This document shows positions 4,521-30,080 of a stretch of DNA of 64,000 bases, in pieces. Each line of letters opens with the position of its first letter. Position 1 is the stretch's first letter. The DNA lies in NCBI RefSeq assembly GCF_044324875.1, contig NZ_CP172185.1. One strand, 5' to 3'. Source of the DNA: Escherichia coli. Lineage in GTDB: Bacteria > Pseudomonadota > Gammaproteobacteria > Enterobacterales > Enterobacteriaceae. A program made the position numbers and the translations under genes. Below the pieces are notes generated by a model. That model was not told the DNA's origin. It did not search any database and saw nothing but the letters and a program-made list of their open reading frames with translations.

Positions 4521-4596
4521 TGGTGGCCCCTGCTGGACTTGAACCAGCGACCAAGCGATTATGAGTCGCCTGCTCTAACCACTGAGCTAAGGGGCC
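4521..4596 (-). tRNA. ileX: tRNA with anticodon CAT of the Ile2 (lysidine-modified) type
   Basis: Reverse complement GGCCCCTTAGCTCAGTGGTTAGAGCAGGCGACTCATAATCGCTTGGTCGCTGGTTCAAGTCCAGCAGGGGCCACCA: 76 nt, cloverleaf-compatible, anticodon loop CUCAUAA, encoded CCA end. Confidence 0.9.
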
Positions 4597-16904: not shown

Positions 16905-17060
16905 ATGCGTGGAATTGTCAACGATTGCGTAGGCCGGATAAGGCGTTCACGCCGCATCCGGCAATCAACGCCTGATGCGACGCTCGCGCGTCTTATCAGG
17001 CCTACAACTGTCGTTGACATGTAGCCGGATAAGGCGTTTACGCCGCATCCGGCAAAATAT
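16905..17060. repeat. BIME: cluster of three REP palindromes between uppP and cca
   Basis: GCCGGATAAGGCGTTCACGCCGCATCCGGC (16934-16963), GCCTGATGCGACGCTCGCGCGTCTTATCAGGCCTAC (16971-17006) and a second GCCGGATAAGGCGTTTACGCCGCATCCGGC (17025-17054). Confidence 0.75.
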
Positions 17061-24921: not shown

Positions 24922-24949
24922 TTGACGCTGTTTTTTTTCAACCTAAAGT
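24922..24949 (+). promoter_or_regulatory. Sigma-70-type promoter of the repeat-1 antisense RNA: TTGACG-N16-TAAAGT
   Basis: -35 TTGACG (24922-24927), 16-bp spacer, -10 TAAAGT (24944-24949); duplicated in repeat 2. Confidence 0.5.
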
Positions 24950-24956
24950 AAAGGAA

Positions 24957-25104
24957 CAAGGGTGAGGGAGGATTTCTCCCCCCTCTGATTGGCTGTTAAT
25001 AAGCTGCGAAACTTACGAGTAACAACACAATCAGTATGATGACCAGCTTCATCATAACCCTTTCCTTATACAAGGCCCCTTCTTCGGGAGGGGCTTTCCC
25101 GTTT
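24957..25104 (+). ncRNA. sibE: Sib-family antisense sRNA (antitoxin), repeat 1; ends are approximate
   Basis: Inferred transcript from the promoter to an intrinsic terminator (8-bp stem GCCCCUUC / GGAGGGGC with UUCG tetraloop at 25075-25094, then a U-rich tract); fully complementary to the 19-codon ORF on the opposite strand. The D versus E label rests on recalled K-12 gene order. Confidence 0.55.
24996..25055 (-). CDS. ibsE: Ibs-family type I toxin, 19-aa hydrophobic peptide MMKLVIILIVLLLVSFAAY
   Basis: Minus-strand ATG ATG AAG CTG GTC ATC ATA CTG ATT GTG TTG TTA CTC GTA AGT TTC GCA GCT TAT TAA, preceded by SD AAGGAAAGGG. Below the 60-aa cutoff of the ORF track. Confidence 0.7.
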   Translation of the reverse strand: MMKLVIILIVLLLVSFAAY

Positions 25105-25296: not shown

Positions 25297-25325
25297 TTGA
25301 CGCTGATTTTTTTTCAACCTAAAGT
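25297..25325 (+). promoter_or_regulatory. Sigma-70-type promoter of the repeat-2 antisense RNA: TTGACG-N17-TAAAGT
   Basis: Same hexamers as repeat 1 with one extra base in the spacer. Confidence 0.5.
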
Positions 25326-25332
25326 AAAGGAA

Positions 25333-25481
25333 CAAGGGTAAGGGAGGATTTCTCCCCCCTCTGAATTGGTTGTTAATAAGCCTGGAAACTTACTAGTAAC
25401 AACACAATCAGTATGATGACGAGCTTCATCATAACCCTTTCCTTCTATAAGGCCCCTTCTTCGGGAGGGGCTTTCCCGTTT
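25333..25481 (+). ncRNA. sibD: Sib-family antisense sRNA (antitoxin), repeat 2; ends are approximate
   Basis: Promoter-to-terminator inference as for repeat 1 (hairpin at 25452-25471 with UUCG loop); complementary to the second 19-codon ORF. Confidence 0.55.
25373..25432 (-). CDS. ibsD: Ibs-family type I toxin, 19-aa hydrophobic peptide MMKLVIILIVLLLVSFQAY
   Basis: Minus-strand ATG ATG AAG CTC GTC ATC ATA CTG ATT GTG TTG TTA CTA GTA AGT TTC CAG GCT TAT TAA with the same SD as repeat 1. Confidence 0.7.
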   Translation of the reverse strand: MMKLVIILIVLLLVSFQAY

Positions 25482-27989: not shown

Positions 27990-28257
27990 ATGTCACTCCA
28001 ATGTCCATTTAGTGACGCAATATTTACTTTAGGATAGTTTCCTTGCTTACATTTATCTTTGTTAATAATAACACATGTTAGAGAAGTTCTGGAAGAGAAA
28101 GTCTTTTAATATGGTTTTTTATTTTTCACTAAAAAGTGTGATCGGGGACAATATATTTACGCACGTTATGTTTAAAGGCACTACACTGATTGGGGAATAC
28201 TGAAATCAGAAAAAGCATATGGCCTTAAAAGGTATGCGATAACCGGAGGATGTGCTT

Positions 28258-28458
28258 ATGGATCATAGTCTTAATTCTTTAAATAATTTCGATTTCCTGG
28301 CGCGTAGTTTTGCCAGAATGCACGCAGAAGGTCGCCCGGTCGATATTCTGGCCGTTACTGGTAACATGGATGAAGAACATAGAACCTGGTTTTGCGCACG
28401 TTATGCCTGGTATTGCCAACAGATGATGCAAACCAGAGAACTTGAATTAGAACACTGA
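28258..28458 (+). CDS. glgS: Small surface-composition regulator GlgS
   Basis: 66-aa protein [66 protein letters not shown]; SD GGAGGA 8 nt upstream of the ATG. Confidence 0.9.
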
Positions 28459-28461
28459 TAT

Positions 28462-28486
28462 TACGGGCCGTCTGGCCCGTTTTTGT
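28462..28486. terminator. Rho-independent terminator after glgS, shared with the convergent ubiK
   Basis: ACGGGCC-GTCT-GGCCCGT followed by TTTTTG. Confidence 0.7.
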
Positions 28487-28492
28487 GTTGCT

Positions 28493-28792
28493 TTATTCTG
28501 CTTTATCAATAGGCGGGATAGCCGGAGGAGATTGAAGATCTGCTACCGAATTATTGCGCGCTTCCAGTTCACTGATGCGCTGCTCCAGTAATGCCAGTTT
28601 CTCACGAGTCCGTAACAGGACTTGCGTCTGTACGTCGAATTCTTCGCGGCTCACCAGATCGAGACGCGTCAGCTGCGCTTGTAGGGTTTGGCGGATTTTT
28701 TTCTCCACATCTTCCCCGAACTCCCTGATTCCTTTAGGCATTGATTCGTGAACCTGGCGAGCGATTTGCTCAATTTTTTTCGGGTCAATCAT
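28493..28792 (-). CDS. ubiK: Ubiquinone biosynthesis accessory factor (BMFP coiled-coil family)
   Basis: 99-aa protein [28 protein letters not shown]... from the ATG at 28792, which has SD AGGGAA; the track ORF extends 20 codons further upstream without an SD. Confidence 0.85.
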
Positions 28793-28878
28793 TGTAGTTT
28801 CCCTGTACTGATAGGTGTTGAATGCCATTGTAGTGCGATAAGGGTAAGTCATAAACCAGAATTATGTGAAGCTATGCG

Positions 28879-28907
28879 TTGCTGCCGCTAATCATTAGCG
28901 TTATAGT
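28879..28907 (+). promoter_or_regulatory. ribB promoter: TTGCTG-N17-TATAGT
   Basis: -35 at 28879-28884 and -10 at 28902-28907, immediately upstream of the riboswitch aptamer. Confidence 0.55.
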
Positions 28908-28913
28908 GAACCC

Positions 28914-29160
28914 GCTTATTCTCAGGGCGGGGCGAAATTCCCCACCGGCGGTAAATCAACTCAGTTGAAAGCCCGCGAGCGCTTTGGGTGCGAACTCAAA
29001 GGACAGCAGATCCGGTGTAATTCCGGGGCCGACGGTTAGAGTCCGGATGGGAGAGAGTAACGATTCTGTCGGGCATGGACCCGCTCACGTTATTTTGGCT
29101 ATATGCCGCCACTCCTAAGACTGCCCTGATTCTGGTAACCATAATTTTAGTGAGGTTTTT
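28914..29160 (+). promoter_or_regulatory. sroG: FMN riboswitch (RFN element) in the ribB leader
   Basis: Conserved FMN-aptamer blocks present: CAGGGCGGGGCGAAAUUCCCCACCGGCGGUA, GCCCGCGAGCG, GCCGACGGUUAGAGUCCGGAUGGGAGA, followed by the expression platform and SD GAGG. Confidence 0.85.
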
Positions 29161-29165
29161 TTACC

Positions 29166-29819
29166 ATGAATCAGACGCTACTTTCCTCTTTTGGTACGCC
29201 TTTCGAACGTGTTGAAAATGCACTGGCTGCGCTGCGTGAAGGACGCGGTGTAATGGTGCTTGATGATGAAGACCGTGAAAACGAAGGCGATATGATCTTC
29301 CCGGCAGAAACCATGACCGTTGAGCAGATGGCGCTGACCATTCGCCACGGTAGCGGTATTGTTTGCCTGTGCATTACTGAAGATCGCCGTAAACAACTCG
29401 ATCTGCCAATGATGGTAGAAAATAACACCAGCGCCTATGGCACCGGTTTTACCGTGACCATTGAAGCGGCTGAAGGTGTGACTACCGGTGTTTCTGCCGC
29501 TGACCGTATTACGACCGTTCGCGCAGCGATTGCCGATGGCGCAAAACCTTCTGATCTGAATCGCCCGGGCCACGTTTTCCCACTTCGCGCGCAGGCAGGT
29601 GGAGTACTGACGCGTGGCGGTCATACTGAAGCAACTATTGATCTAATGACGCTGGCAGGCTTTAAACCGGCTGGTGTGCTGTGTGAGCTGACTAATGACG
29701 ATGGCACGATGGCGCGTGCACCAGAGTGCATTGAGTTTGCCAATAAACACAATATGGCGCTCGTGACTATTGAAGATCTGGTGGCATACCGTCAGGCACA
29801 TGAGCGTAAAGCCAGCTGA
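29166..29819 (+). CDS. ribB: 3,4-dihydroxy-2-butanone 4-phosphate synthase
   Basis: 217-aa ORF with the [10 protein letters not shown] motif. Confidence 0.95.
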
Positions 29820-29851
29820 AAACCGCTGCTTAATTTACTGCCTTAATCAAG

Positions 29852-29888
29852 AAACCGAAGTTGTAGCAGGCTTCGGTTTTTATTTTTC
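29852..29888 (+). terminator. Rho-independent terminator of ribB
   Basis: AAACCGAAG / CTTCGGTTT stem followed by TTTTATTTTT. Confidence 0.75.
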
Positions 29889-30080
29889 CCTGCTATGCAA
29901 GATGTTAATTCCGCTTCTCTTTCTATGAGAAAATTTCATTAATATCAGGCATTCTTTTTCATTATGATCAAAATCATATAATTGTTCCGTTATTATGCGA
30001 CCATATGAATATATCCGAAAAAGGATATGTGAAATTTATGCGCTAAATGTTTAGTATTGTTAAATATTAAGGGTAAAAGG

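What the first reader, a model, noticed from the sequence alone, without database searches (positions are those of the whole stretch)
28914..29160. FMN riboswitch in the ribB leader
All conserved FMN-aptamer blocks are present between the predicted ribB promoter and its SD. This is a known element, reported here because it explains the long 5' leader.
Basis: partly seen in the sequence, partly recalled or inferred. Interest (0 to 1): 0.25.

Follow-up and report, generated by a model that had tools for sequence, protein, structure and literature searches.

The report
Known E. coli ribB FMN riboswitch
This is the well-studied vitamin-B2 (FMN) sensing RNA switch in front of the E. coli riboflavin gene ribB, base-for-base identical to the laboratory K-12 version, so the finding is correct but ordinary.

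Summary
Rfam's FMN model (RF00050) matches window 28914-29062 (+) over its full length at 120.9 bits against a gathering score of 66.2, E=1e-27. The gene behind it is ribB (TIGR00506, 287.7 bits vs cut-off 177.45). The window is E. coli chromosome. The region is present in 5425 of 5426 complete genomes, and RefSeq annotates the same 149 nt as 'FMN riboswitch'. The 252-nt leader (28914-29165) is identical to K-12 MG1655, so published experiments on this element apply directly. In those, FMN binding (Kswitch about 0.2 uM) stabilises P1 and lets a stem form that sequesters the SD and AUG. FMN binding also triggers Rho-dependent termination. I mapped P1, anti-P1, anti*-P1, the sequester hairpin (which runs to 29174, inside the CDS), the pause sites and the promoter onto the window. 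In 50 non-redundant Enterobacterales leaders the pairing potential of every helix is kept (89-100% of cells paired). Real covariation is confined to peripheral aptamer stems. Nothing here is new. The only addition is a possible extension of anti*-P1 (UGGGAG 29048-53 with the near-invariant CUCCUA 29112-17). Interest is low.

The parts
28879..28907 (+). ribB promoter: -35 TTGCTG (28879-84), 17-nt spacer, -10 TATAGT (28902-07)
   Evidence: Read from the sequence. TTGC, the spacing and GCGTTATAGT are conserved at a fixed distance from P1 in 50 Enterobacterales leaders. Not listed by the consensus scan because the -35 matches only 3/6.
28914..29062 (+). FMN riboswitch aptamer (RFN element), P1-P6; 28914 = transcript position +1 in the literature numbering
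   Evidence: Rfam RF00050, 120.9 bits vs GA 66.2, full model. RefSeq feature 'FMN riboswitch' at the same 149 nt. Identical to K-12 3184570-3184718(-). Helices 96-100% paired in 50 leaders, with compensatory changes in P3a (4/5 pairs) and the P4 extension (6/8 pairs).
28916..28923 (+). P1 5' strand UUAUUCUC (pairs with 29053-60 in the FMN-bound state; with 29134-38 and 29129 in the free state)
   Evidence: Rfam alignment. P1 99.3% paired in 50 leaders, one-sided U-A/U-G changes only. Alternative pairing.
29053..29060 (+). P1 3' strand GAGAGUAA
29048..29062 (+). 5' side of the ON-state anti-aptamer helix: UGGGAG (29048-53, my proposed extension) plus AGAGUAACG (29054-62, published anti*-P1, nt 141-149)
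   Evidence: MFE fold. Paper PMC11571811 defines anti*-P1 as 141-149/175-183. Pair counts 98.7% (extension) and 89.3% (anti*-P1).
29070..29083 (+). small GC hairpin H1 (CGGG/CCCG) just upstream of the first pause region
   Evidence: Fold. 79% paired, 3 of 4 pairs with double changes in 50 leaders, alignment uncertain here.
29088..29096 (+). anti*-P1 3' strand CGUUAUUUU (nt 175-183); published RNAP pause sites C175 = 29088 and U181 = 29094
29074..29143 (+). C-rich, G-poor stretch of the leader (candidate rut region)
   Evidence: Sliding C-G composition: the only leader stretch with C exceeding G by 12 percentage points or more. The literature places rut and termination sites in the expression platform. 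The exact rut is not mapped here.
29112..29117 (+). near-invariant CUCCUA box, complementary to aptamer junction UGGGAG 29048-53
   Evidence: Conserved columns in A2; 98.7% paired, no compensatory change. The pairing is an inference.
29121..29138 (+). 3' strand of anti-P1 (anti-sequester): CUGCCCUGA 29121-29 pairs with J1/2 28922-30; GGUAA 29134-38 pairs with 28916-20
   Evidence: Duplex energy -17.5 kcal/mol. 98.2% paired and 49-50 of 50 for the extension. Enforcing it raises predicted AUG exposure from 0.35 to 0.71. Same box in Vibrio, Hahella and Desulfobulbaceae leaders.
29126..29174 (+). sequestering hairpin (OFF state): outer stem 29126-38/29161-74 (U29167 bulged) contains AUG 29166-68; inner stem 29143-48/29152-57 contains SD GAGG 29152-55; published pause 247 = 29160
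   Evidence: Folds. Outer stem 100% paired, 11/13 pairs invariant; inner stem 80.9%. RNase H protection of nt 215-227 by FMN in PMC11571811.
29166..29819 (+). ribB CDS (3,4-dihydroxy-2-butanone-4-phosphate synthase), the regulated gene
   Evidence: ORF. TIGR00506 287.7 bits vs 177.45. Protein identical to K-12 RibB. RefSeq annotation.
29850..29891 (+). intrinsic terminator after ribB (13-bp stem plus T-run): ribB is monocistronic
   Evidence: Terminator scan.

Best explanation
Window 28914-29174 (+) is the E. coli ribB FMN riboswitch: a 149-nt FMN aptamer followed by a roughly 110-nt expression platform that reaches three codons into ribB. Without FMN, both ends of the aptamer are captured by platform sequences. 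The 3' end (29048/54-62) pairs first with 29088-96 (anti*-P1), and possibly also with the CUCCUA box 29112-17. The 5' end (P1 5' strand plus J1/2, 28916-30) then pairs with 29121-38 (anti-P1). That occupies the 5' arm of the sequester stem, leaves the SD and AUG free, and allows ribB to be translated. When FMN binds the nascent aptamer during transcription, within a window bounded by pauses at 29088/29094 and about 29160, P1 (28916-23/29053-60) is locked. The platform arm 29126-38 is then free to pair with 29161-74, and 29143-48 with 29152-57, which buries the AUG and the SD. Translation initiation is blocked, and Rho terminates transcription in the platform or early ORF. Riboflavin synthesis is therefore feedback-repressed at both the protein and the mRNA level. 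Shown here: aptamer membership, gene identity, identity to K-12, pairing potential and its conservation. Taken from the literature on this exact sequence: FMN binding, FMN-dependent protection of P1 and the sequester arm, pauses, Rho dependence. Inferred: exact anti-P1 register, the CUCCUA extension, rut location.
For: CM match of 120.9 bits vs 66.2, full length. The downstream gene is ribB. RefSeq annotates an FMN riboswitch at the same 149 nt, and the region is present in 5425/5426 E. coli genomes. The leader 28914-29165 has 0 differences from K-12, while the ribB CDS has 13 synonymous ones. PMC11571811 reports FMN-dependent RNase H protection of P1 (Kswitch 176 nM) and of the sequestering arm 218-227 (206 nM), pauses at 175/181 and 247-249, anti*-P1 at 141-149/175-183, and an ON state with both aptamer extremities in helices. 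PMC5499598 reports that transcriptional control of ribB is lost in a rho R66S mutant, with a Rho termination score of 3.1. The folds reproduce anti*-P1 and the two-tier sequester hairpin. In 50 non-redundant Enterobacterales leaders P1 is 99.3% paired, the outer sequester stem 100%, anti-P1 98.2% (plus 49-50/50 for its extension) and anti*-P1 89.3% with 2 pairs changed on both sides; peripheral aptamer stems show abundant compensatory changes. Constrained folding gives AUG unpaired probability of 0.35 (OFF) vs 0.71 (ON with extended anti-P1), and SD 0.21 vs 0.38. The same GCCCUGAUUCUGG ... ACCAUGAAUCAG architecture occurs in Vibrio, Hahella, Neptunicella and Desulfobulbaceae leaders. No intrinsic terminator-like site lies in the leader on the + strand. 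There is a C>G stretch at 29074-29143.
Against: The platform helices are almost invariant, so there is essentially no covariation proof for anti-P1, the CUCCUA extension or the outer sequester stem. Their conservation could partly reflect coding constraint (3' arm) or protein or Rho binding. The whole-leader fold is not more stable than shuffles (z = -0.48). Nearest-neighbour energies also ignore tertiary and ligand energy. A 9-bp anti-P1 alone barely exposes SD/AUG in the model. The inner SD stem is only 81% paired across species. I could not read the primary Rho paper (Hollands 2012), so termination sites and the rut are second-hand. The authors of PMC11571811 themselves say the structures of nt ~150-210 are not settled.
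Confidence: 0.97

Rival explanations
1. Rho termination is not controlled directly by riboswitch conformation (rut exposure). It is only an indirect consequence of blocked translation, with the untranslated ribB mRNA becoming a Rho substrate, as shown for thiM.
For: The sequester hairpin buries both SD and AUG. PMC5499598 demonstrates exactly this indirect mode for thiM and notes that translational control and Rho termination are intimately linked. The C-rich stretch 29164-29203 at the start of the ORF is also rut-like.
Against: [quoted passage not shown] FMN increases accessibility of nt 184-193, which fits ligand-dependent rut exposure.
Confidence: 0.2
2. The riboswitch acts as a Bacillus ribD-type transcriptional attenuator through an intrinsic terminator: hairpin H1 (29070-83) followed by the U-rich run 29090-96.
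For: A GC hairpin is followed a few nt later by UUAUUUU. Mapped pauses at C175/U181 (29088/29094) sit exactly there. The literature says the switch also operates at the transcriptional level.
Against: The terminator scan finds nothing on the + strand inside the leader. The stem is only 4-5 bp and is separated from the U-run by CUCAC. H1 is only 79% paired across species. The U-run is the anti*-P1 strand. Transcriptional control is lost in a rho mutant.
Confidence: 0.05
3. The long leader encodes a regulatory leader peptide (ORFs 28984-29118 or 29075-29215), and the aptamer-like sequence is incidental.
For: Two small + strand ORFs overlap the leader.
Against: Their start codons are not conserved: ATG at 29075 in 8 of 50 leaders, TTG at 28984 in 4 of 50. 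The full-length CM hit at E=1e-27 cannot be incidental.
Confidence: 0.01

Closest known systems
E. coli K-12 ribB FMN riboswitch (leader RNA also catalogued as SroG; Rfam RF00050)
   Same: It is the same element. Window 28914-29165 is identical at every base to MG1655 3184467-3184718(-), with the same flanking genes ubiK and ribB and the same helices, pauses and sequester stem as described in PMC11571811.
   Different: There are two substitutions upstream of +1 (28822, 28911) and 13 synonymous changes in ribB. The strain lacks the ygiL fimbrial cluster that lies beyond ubiK in K-12. None of these touches the RNA.
Bacillus subtilis ribD (ribDG) FMN riboswitch
   Same: Same aptamer family, same ligand, same OFF-switch logic through P1 stabilisation, and kinetically driven co-transcriptional sensing with pauses.
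   Different: The B. subtilis platform is an intrinsic terminator/antiterminator. The window's platform has no intrinsic terminator and instead sequesters SD/AUG and uses Rho.
E. coli thiM / thiC / tbpA TPP riboswitches
   Same: They are translational OFF switches with an anti-P1 helix, a pause near the start codon that closes the ligand-sensing window, and Rho-dependent reduction of mRNA.
   Different: They have a different aptamer and ligand. For thiM, Rho acts indirectly through loss of translation, whereas ribB is described as exposing a rut directly.

Membership tests
FMN riboswitch / RFN element (Rfam RF00050) | Covariance-model score at or above the curated gathering threshold over the full model | tested here: met
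   120.9 bits vs 66.2, model 1-138/138, E=1.1e-27; repeated on the leader alone.
FMN riboswitch / RFN element (Rfam RF00050) | Six-stem (P1-P6) architecture with conserved junction sequences | tested here: met
   All stems are canonical in the window. They are 96-100% paired in 50 leaders, with compensatory changes in P3a and the P4 extension and invariant junction columns.
FMN riboswitch / RFN element (Rfam RF00050) | Located in the 5' leader of a flavin biosynthesis or transport gene, same strand | tested here: met
   The aptamer ends 103 nt before the ribB AUG. ribB = TIGR00506, 287.7 bits vs 177.45; RefSeq annotation agrees.
FMN riboswitch / RFN element (Rfam RF00050) | Binds FMN with high affinity and specificity | not testable with these tools
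   Published for the identical sequence: Kswitch 176 +/- 19 nM (P1 probe) and 206 +/- 28 nM (sequester probe) in PMC11571811; identity to K-12 shown.
Translational (SD-sequestering) riboswitch expression platform | Mutually exclusive helices: P1 vs anti-P1, and anti-P1 vs a stem covering SD/AUG | tested here: met
   The helices overlap as required. Pairing potential is kept in 98-100% of cells across 50 leaders. Modelled AUG exposure is 0.35 vs 0.71.
Translational (SD-sequestering) riboswitch expression platform | Covariation (compensatory changes) supporting the platform helices | tested here: inconclusive
   The outer sequester stem and anti-P1 show no pair changed on both sides, and anti*-P1 shows 2 of 9. 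The sequences are nearly invariant.
Rho-dependent riboswitch attenuator (ribB / mgtA type) | C-rich, G-poor rut-like stretch in the platform | tested here: met
   29074-29143 is the only leader stretch with C exceeding G by 12 points or more. This is a composition test only.
Rho-dependent riboswitch attenuator (ribB / mgtA type) | Ligand-dependent termination that requires Rho | not testable with these tools
   From the literature: control is lost in rho R66S, Rho termination score 3.1. The primary paper was not retrievable.
Intrinsic-terminator FMN riboswitch (B. subtilis ribD type) | Stable GC hairpin immediately followed by a U-tract between aptamer and start codon | tested here: not met
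   No + strand terminator-like site lies within 28914-29165. H1 is 4-5 bp and is not adjacent to the U-run.

The most novel reading that the evidence does not exclude
The ON state contains a longer anti-aptamer helix than published. The near-invariant box CUCCUA (29112-17) pairs with UGGGAG (29048-53). UGGGAG is the conserved aptamer junction next to P1, which established FMN riboswitch structures suggest lies close to the ligand-binding core (my reading, not tested here). This would extend anti*-P1. Together with the adjacent CUGCCCUGA (29121-29), which pairs with J1/2, the 18-nt box 29112-29129 would then act as a bipartite clamp holding both sides of the P1/junction region apart. A separate, untested possibility is that the stable 149-nt leader fragment (SroG) has a function in trans.
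Probability: 0.3. Interest if true: 0.2.

Novelty: already known. Interest (0 to 1): 0.07.

Why it matters
It matters only as correct annotation. The element explains the 252-nt ribB leader and the feedback control of riboflavin synthesis in E. coli. It is also the RNA that the literature treats as an antibacterial target; roseoflavin binding to the E. coli ribB riboswitch in live cells is shown, and other small-molecule efforts are cited. For a genome scan it serves as a positive control: the first-stage reader recognised a real, full-length riboswitch from raw sequence at the correct start base. It does not open any new question.

Tried and rejected
- The consensus promoter scan did not list the ribB promoter. 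I located it by eye and confirmed it by cross-genus conservation.
- Alignment A1 used a fixed 133-nt upstream slice, which mis-sliced six leaders. These carry a 50-120 nt insertion in the P3 loop, so I rebuilt the alignment as A2.
- A minimal 9-bp anti-P1 did not expose SD/AUG in constrained folding. Extending it with 28916-20/29134-38 did.
- The whole-leader MFE z-score is uninformative (-0.48), as expected for an RNA with competing folds.
- Hollands 2012 (PNAS) could not be retrieved, so the Rho termination sites are second-hand.
- The leader-peptide idea is rejected because the start codons are not conserved.
- The palindrome GCTAAT-C-ATTAGC in the promoter spacer is not conserved as a palindrome.
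- The sub-threshold AdoCbl-II hit on 28992-29060 (22.3 vs 36.5 bits) is chance.
- The repeat finder on the leader gave only one weak, irrelevant inverted pair.
- The CUCCUA box cannot pair with the SD GAGG in antiparallel register (checked by hand), so it is not an anti-SD.

Full report
OBSERVATION. A gathering-threshold scan of the whole window against Rfam 15 gives a full-length FMN riboswitch hit (RF00050). It spans 28914-29062 on the + strand and covers model positions 1-138 of 138, at 120.9 bits against a gathering score of 66.2 and E=1.1e-27. A permissive scan of the leader alone returns the same hit. The only other hit is a sub-threshold AdoCbl-II match (22.3 vs 36.5 bits), which I regard as chance. 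The ORF that follows (29166-29819) is RibB: TIGR00506 scores 287.7 bits against a cut-off of 177.45.

SOURCE AND ANNOTATION. A 551-nt query around the element matches 5425 of 5426 complete E. coli genomes, 5387 of them at 99% identity or more. RefSeq annotates 'riboswitch / FMN riboswitch' at exactly the same 149 nt, between ubiK (divergent) and ribB. Against K-12 MG1655 the leader 28914-29165 has no difference at all. The only nearby differences are at 28822 and 28911, both upstream of +1, plus 13 synonymous changes in ribB. The aptamer corresponds to MG1655 3184570-3184718 on the complement strand. From memory, this is the RNA catalogued as SroG; a plasmid name in PMC9204756 links 'sroG' to the ribB riboswitch. 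Because the RNA is identical, published work on the K-12 element transfers without qualification.

MAPPING THE LITERATURE ONTO THE WINDOW. Eschbach et al. 2024 (PMC11571811) number the transcript so that C175/G176, U181 and anti*-P1 (141-149 with 175-183) fall on window 29088/29089, 29094 and 29054-62/29088-96. Their sequester-arm probe (218-227) is 29131-40, and their second pause region (247-249) is 29160-62. The AUG, at 29166-68, is then nt 253. They report the following:
- FMN-dependent RNase H protection of P1 (Kswitch 176 nM) and of the sequestering arm (206 nM).
- Increased accessibility of nt 184-193 with FMN.
- High FMN affinity for complexes paused at 175 and poor affinity at 247.
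- An ON state in which both the 5' and 3' extremities of the aptamer are held in helices (anti-P1 and anti*-P1).
Bastet et al. 2017 (PMC5499598) show by ChIP that transcriptional control of ribB is lost in a rho R66S mutant (Rho termination score 3.1). They class ribB as a direct, rut-exposing Rho switch, citing Hollands 2012. I could not retrieve that primary paper.

ANATOMY FROM THE SEQUENCE. The helices in window coordinates are:
- P1: 28916-23 with 29053-60.
- Anti*-P1: 29054-62 with 29088-96.
- A possible continuation of anti*-P1: UGGGAG 29048-53 with CUCCUA 29112-17.
- Anti-P1: 28922-30 with 29121-29 (-17.5 kcal/mol as a duplex), plus 28916-20 with 29134-38.
- Two-tier sequester hairpin: the outer stem 29126-38 with 29161-74 (U29167 bulged) contains the AUG; the inner stem 29143-48 with 29152-57 contains the SD GAGG (29152-55).
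The sequester 5' arm (...CUGGUAA) resembles the P1 3' strand (...GAGUAA), which is the usual competition logic. The functional element therefore ends at 29174, three codons into ribB, not at 29160.
The promoter is -35 TTGCTG (28879-84), a 17-nt spacer and -10 TATAGT (28902-07). TTGC, the spacing and GCGTTATAGT are conserved at a fixed distance from P1 across genera. The consensus scanner missed the promoter because its -35 matches only 3 of 6. No intrinsic-terminator-like site lies in the leader on the + strand. A good one follows ribB at 29850-81. The only C-rich, G-poor stretch of the leader is 29074-29143, which fits a rut in the platform.

COMPARATIVE TEST. One DNA-pattern scan of genome contigs (aptamer 3' core, a 190-220 nt gap, then the Rib[10 protein letters not shown] motif) returned 120 loci. 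After removing leaders at 93% identity or more, 49 Enterobacterales leaders (69-92% identical to the window) were aligned with the window as A2. Pair counts:

| Helix | Cells paired | Changes |
|---|---|---|
| Aptamer stems | 96-100% | Compensatory changes in P3a (4/5 pairs) and the P4 extension (6/8 pairs) |
| P1 | 99.3% | One-sided U-A/U-G only |
| Outer sequester stem | 100% | 11 of 13 pairs invariant |
| Inner SD stem | 80.9% | 1 of 6 pairs changed on both sides; 3 vary on one side only |
| Anti-P1 (9-bp core) | 98.2% | One-sided only |
| Anti-P1 extension (5 bp) | 49-50 of 50 leaders | Essentially invariant |
| CUCCUA extension | 98.7% | One-sided only |
| Anti*-P1 | 89.3% | 2 pairs changed on both sides |

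The pairing potential of every platform helix is therefore conserved. Because the sequences barely vary, this is conservation, not covariation proof. Twelve more distant leaders (Vibrio, Hahella, Neptunicella, Desulfobulbaceae and others) keep the same design: a GCCCUGAUUCUGG box, a hairpin closing on ACCAUGAAUCAG, and a pyrimidine box upstream that can pair with GGGAGAG.

SWITCH LOGIC IN A THERMODYNAMIC MODEL. With the aptamer helices enforced, the predicted unpaired probability is 0.21 for the SD and 0.35 for the AUG. With only the 9-bp anti-P1 plus anti*-P1 enforced it hardly changes (0.25 and 0.45). With the extended anti-P1 it rises to 0.38 and 0.71. The aptamer-locked ensemble (-76 kcal/mol, with no ligand or tertiary energy) is less stable than the ON ensembles (-85 to -90). 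This is consistent with a default-ON switch that must capture FMN co-transcriptionally, as the published pause-bounded sensing window implies. These numbers are model output, not measurements.

MECHANISM. I put confidence of about 0.97 on the overall identity and logic. Without FMN, anti*-P1 forms first, as soon as 29088-96 is transcribed. Anti-P1 then forms once 29121-38 emerges. The sequester arm is occupied, SD/AUG are open and ribB is translated. With FMN bound to the nascent aptamer before RNAP passes about 29160, P1 is locked and the sequester hairpin forms. Initiation is blocked and Rho terminates in the platform or early ORF. Shown here: family membership, gene, sequence identity and conserved pairing potential. 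From the literature: ligand binding, protections, pauses and Rho dependence. Inferred: the anti-P1 register, the CUCCUA extension and the rut position.

RIVALS.
- Rho acting only indirectly through loss of translation, as for thiM, remains possible for part of the effect (about 0.2).
- An intrinsic terminator built from H1 plus the U-run is unlikely (about 0.05). The scan finds no terminator, the stem is short, the U-run is the anti*-P1 strand, and control is lost in a rho mutant.
- A leader peptide is excluded for practical purposes, because the start codons are not conserved.

NOVELTY AND SCORE. The element is already known and heavily studied, and the window copy is identical to the model sequence. 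The only thing I can add is the suggestion that anti*-P1 continues into UGGGAG/CUCCUA, which would explain the near-invariant 29112-17 box. This is a minor refinement and unproven. Interest 0.07.

Noticed in passing
window 24922-25070 and 25297-25447 (+): Two tandem SIB RNA genes (Rfam RF00113, 145.3 and 142.5 bits). From memory these are the sibD/sibE antitoxin RNAs of the ibs/sib type I toxin-antitoxin loci.
   Followed up: no
window 16932-17002 (+): naRNA4 / REP-type element, Rfam RF02564, 83.1 bits.
   Followed up: no
window 4521-4596 (-): A single tRNA gene with anticodon CAT, called tRNA-Met by ARAGORN. From its sequence and neighbourhood it may be the lysidine-modified tRNA-Ile2 gene ileX (own knowledge, not tested).
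   Followed up: no
window ~28200-28800 (glgS 28258-28458 next to ubiK 28493-28792): In this strain glgS lies directly beyond ubiK. In K-12 MG1655 the ygiL fimbrial gene follows ubiK, so the window strain lacks that cluster at this position (vs 13).
   Followed up: partly
L016:9644-9991, L032:8150-8562, L033:8290-8632, L052:1372-1720, L079:4292-4639, L096:6437-6839: In six other Enterobacteriaceae (two Kluyvera, Salmonella enterica subsp. arizonae, 'Enterobacter' pulveris, Citrobacter sedlakii and one more) the ribB FMN aptamer carries a 50-120 nt insertion inside the P3 loop. The long versions look like an ERIC-type repeat, and the rest of the aptamer and platform is intact. So the P3 loop tolerates a mobile repeat.
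   Followed up: partly
window 28887-28899: A perfect palindrome, GCTAAT-C-ATTAGC, sits in the spacer of the ribB promoter. The right half is fairly conserved in Enterobacteriaceae but the left arm is not, so it is probably not a regulator site.
   Followed up: yes
window 28914-29165 vs 29166-29819: Relative to K-12 the 252-nt leader has no substitutions, while the 654-nt ribB CDS has 13, all synonymous. The leader RNA is under tighter constraint than synonymous sites.
   Followed up: partly
window 29161-29174 and loci L012, L018, L025, L051, L055, L060, L070, L101, L102, L120: The first ribB codons AUG-AAU-CAG and the upstream GCCCUGAUUCUGG box are kept even in Vibrio, Hahella, Neptunicella and Desulfobulbaceae. 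This points to an RNA-structure constraint reaching into the coding sequence across distant taxa.
   Followed up: partly
E. coli genome collection: One of 5426 complete E. coli genomes has no match to the ribB leader region, and one extra copy lies on a plasmid.
   Followed up: no
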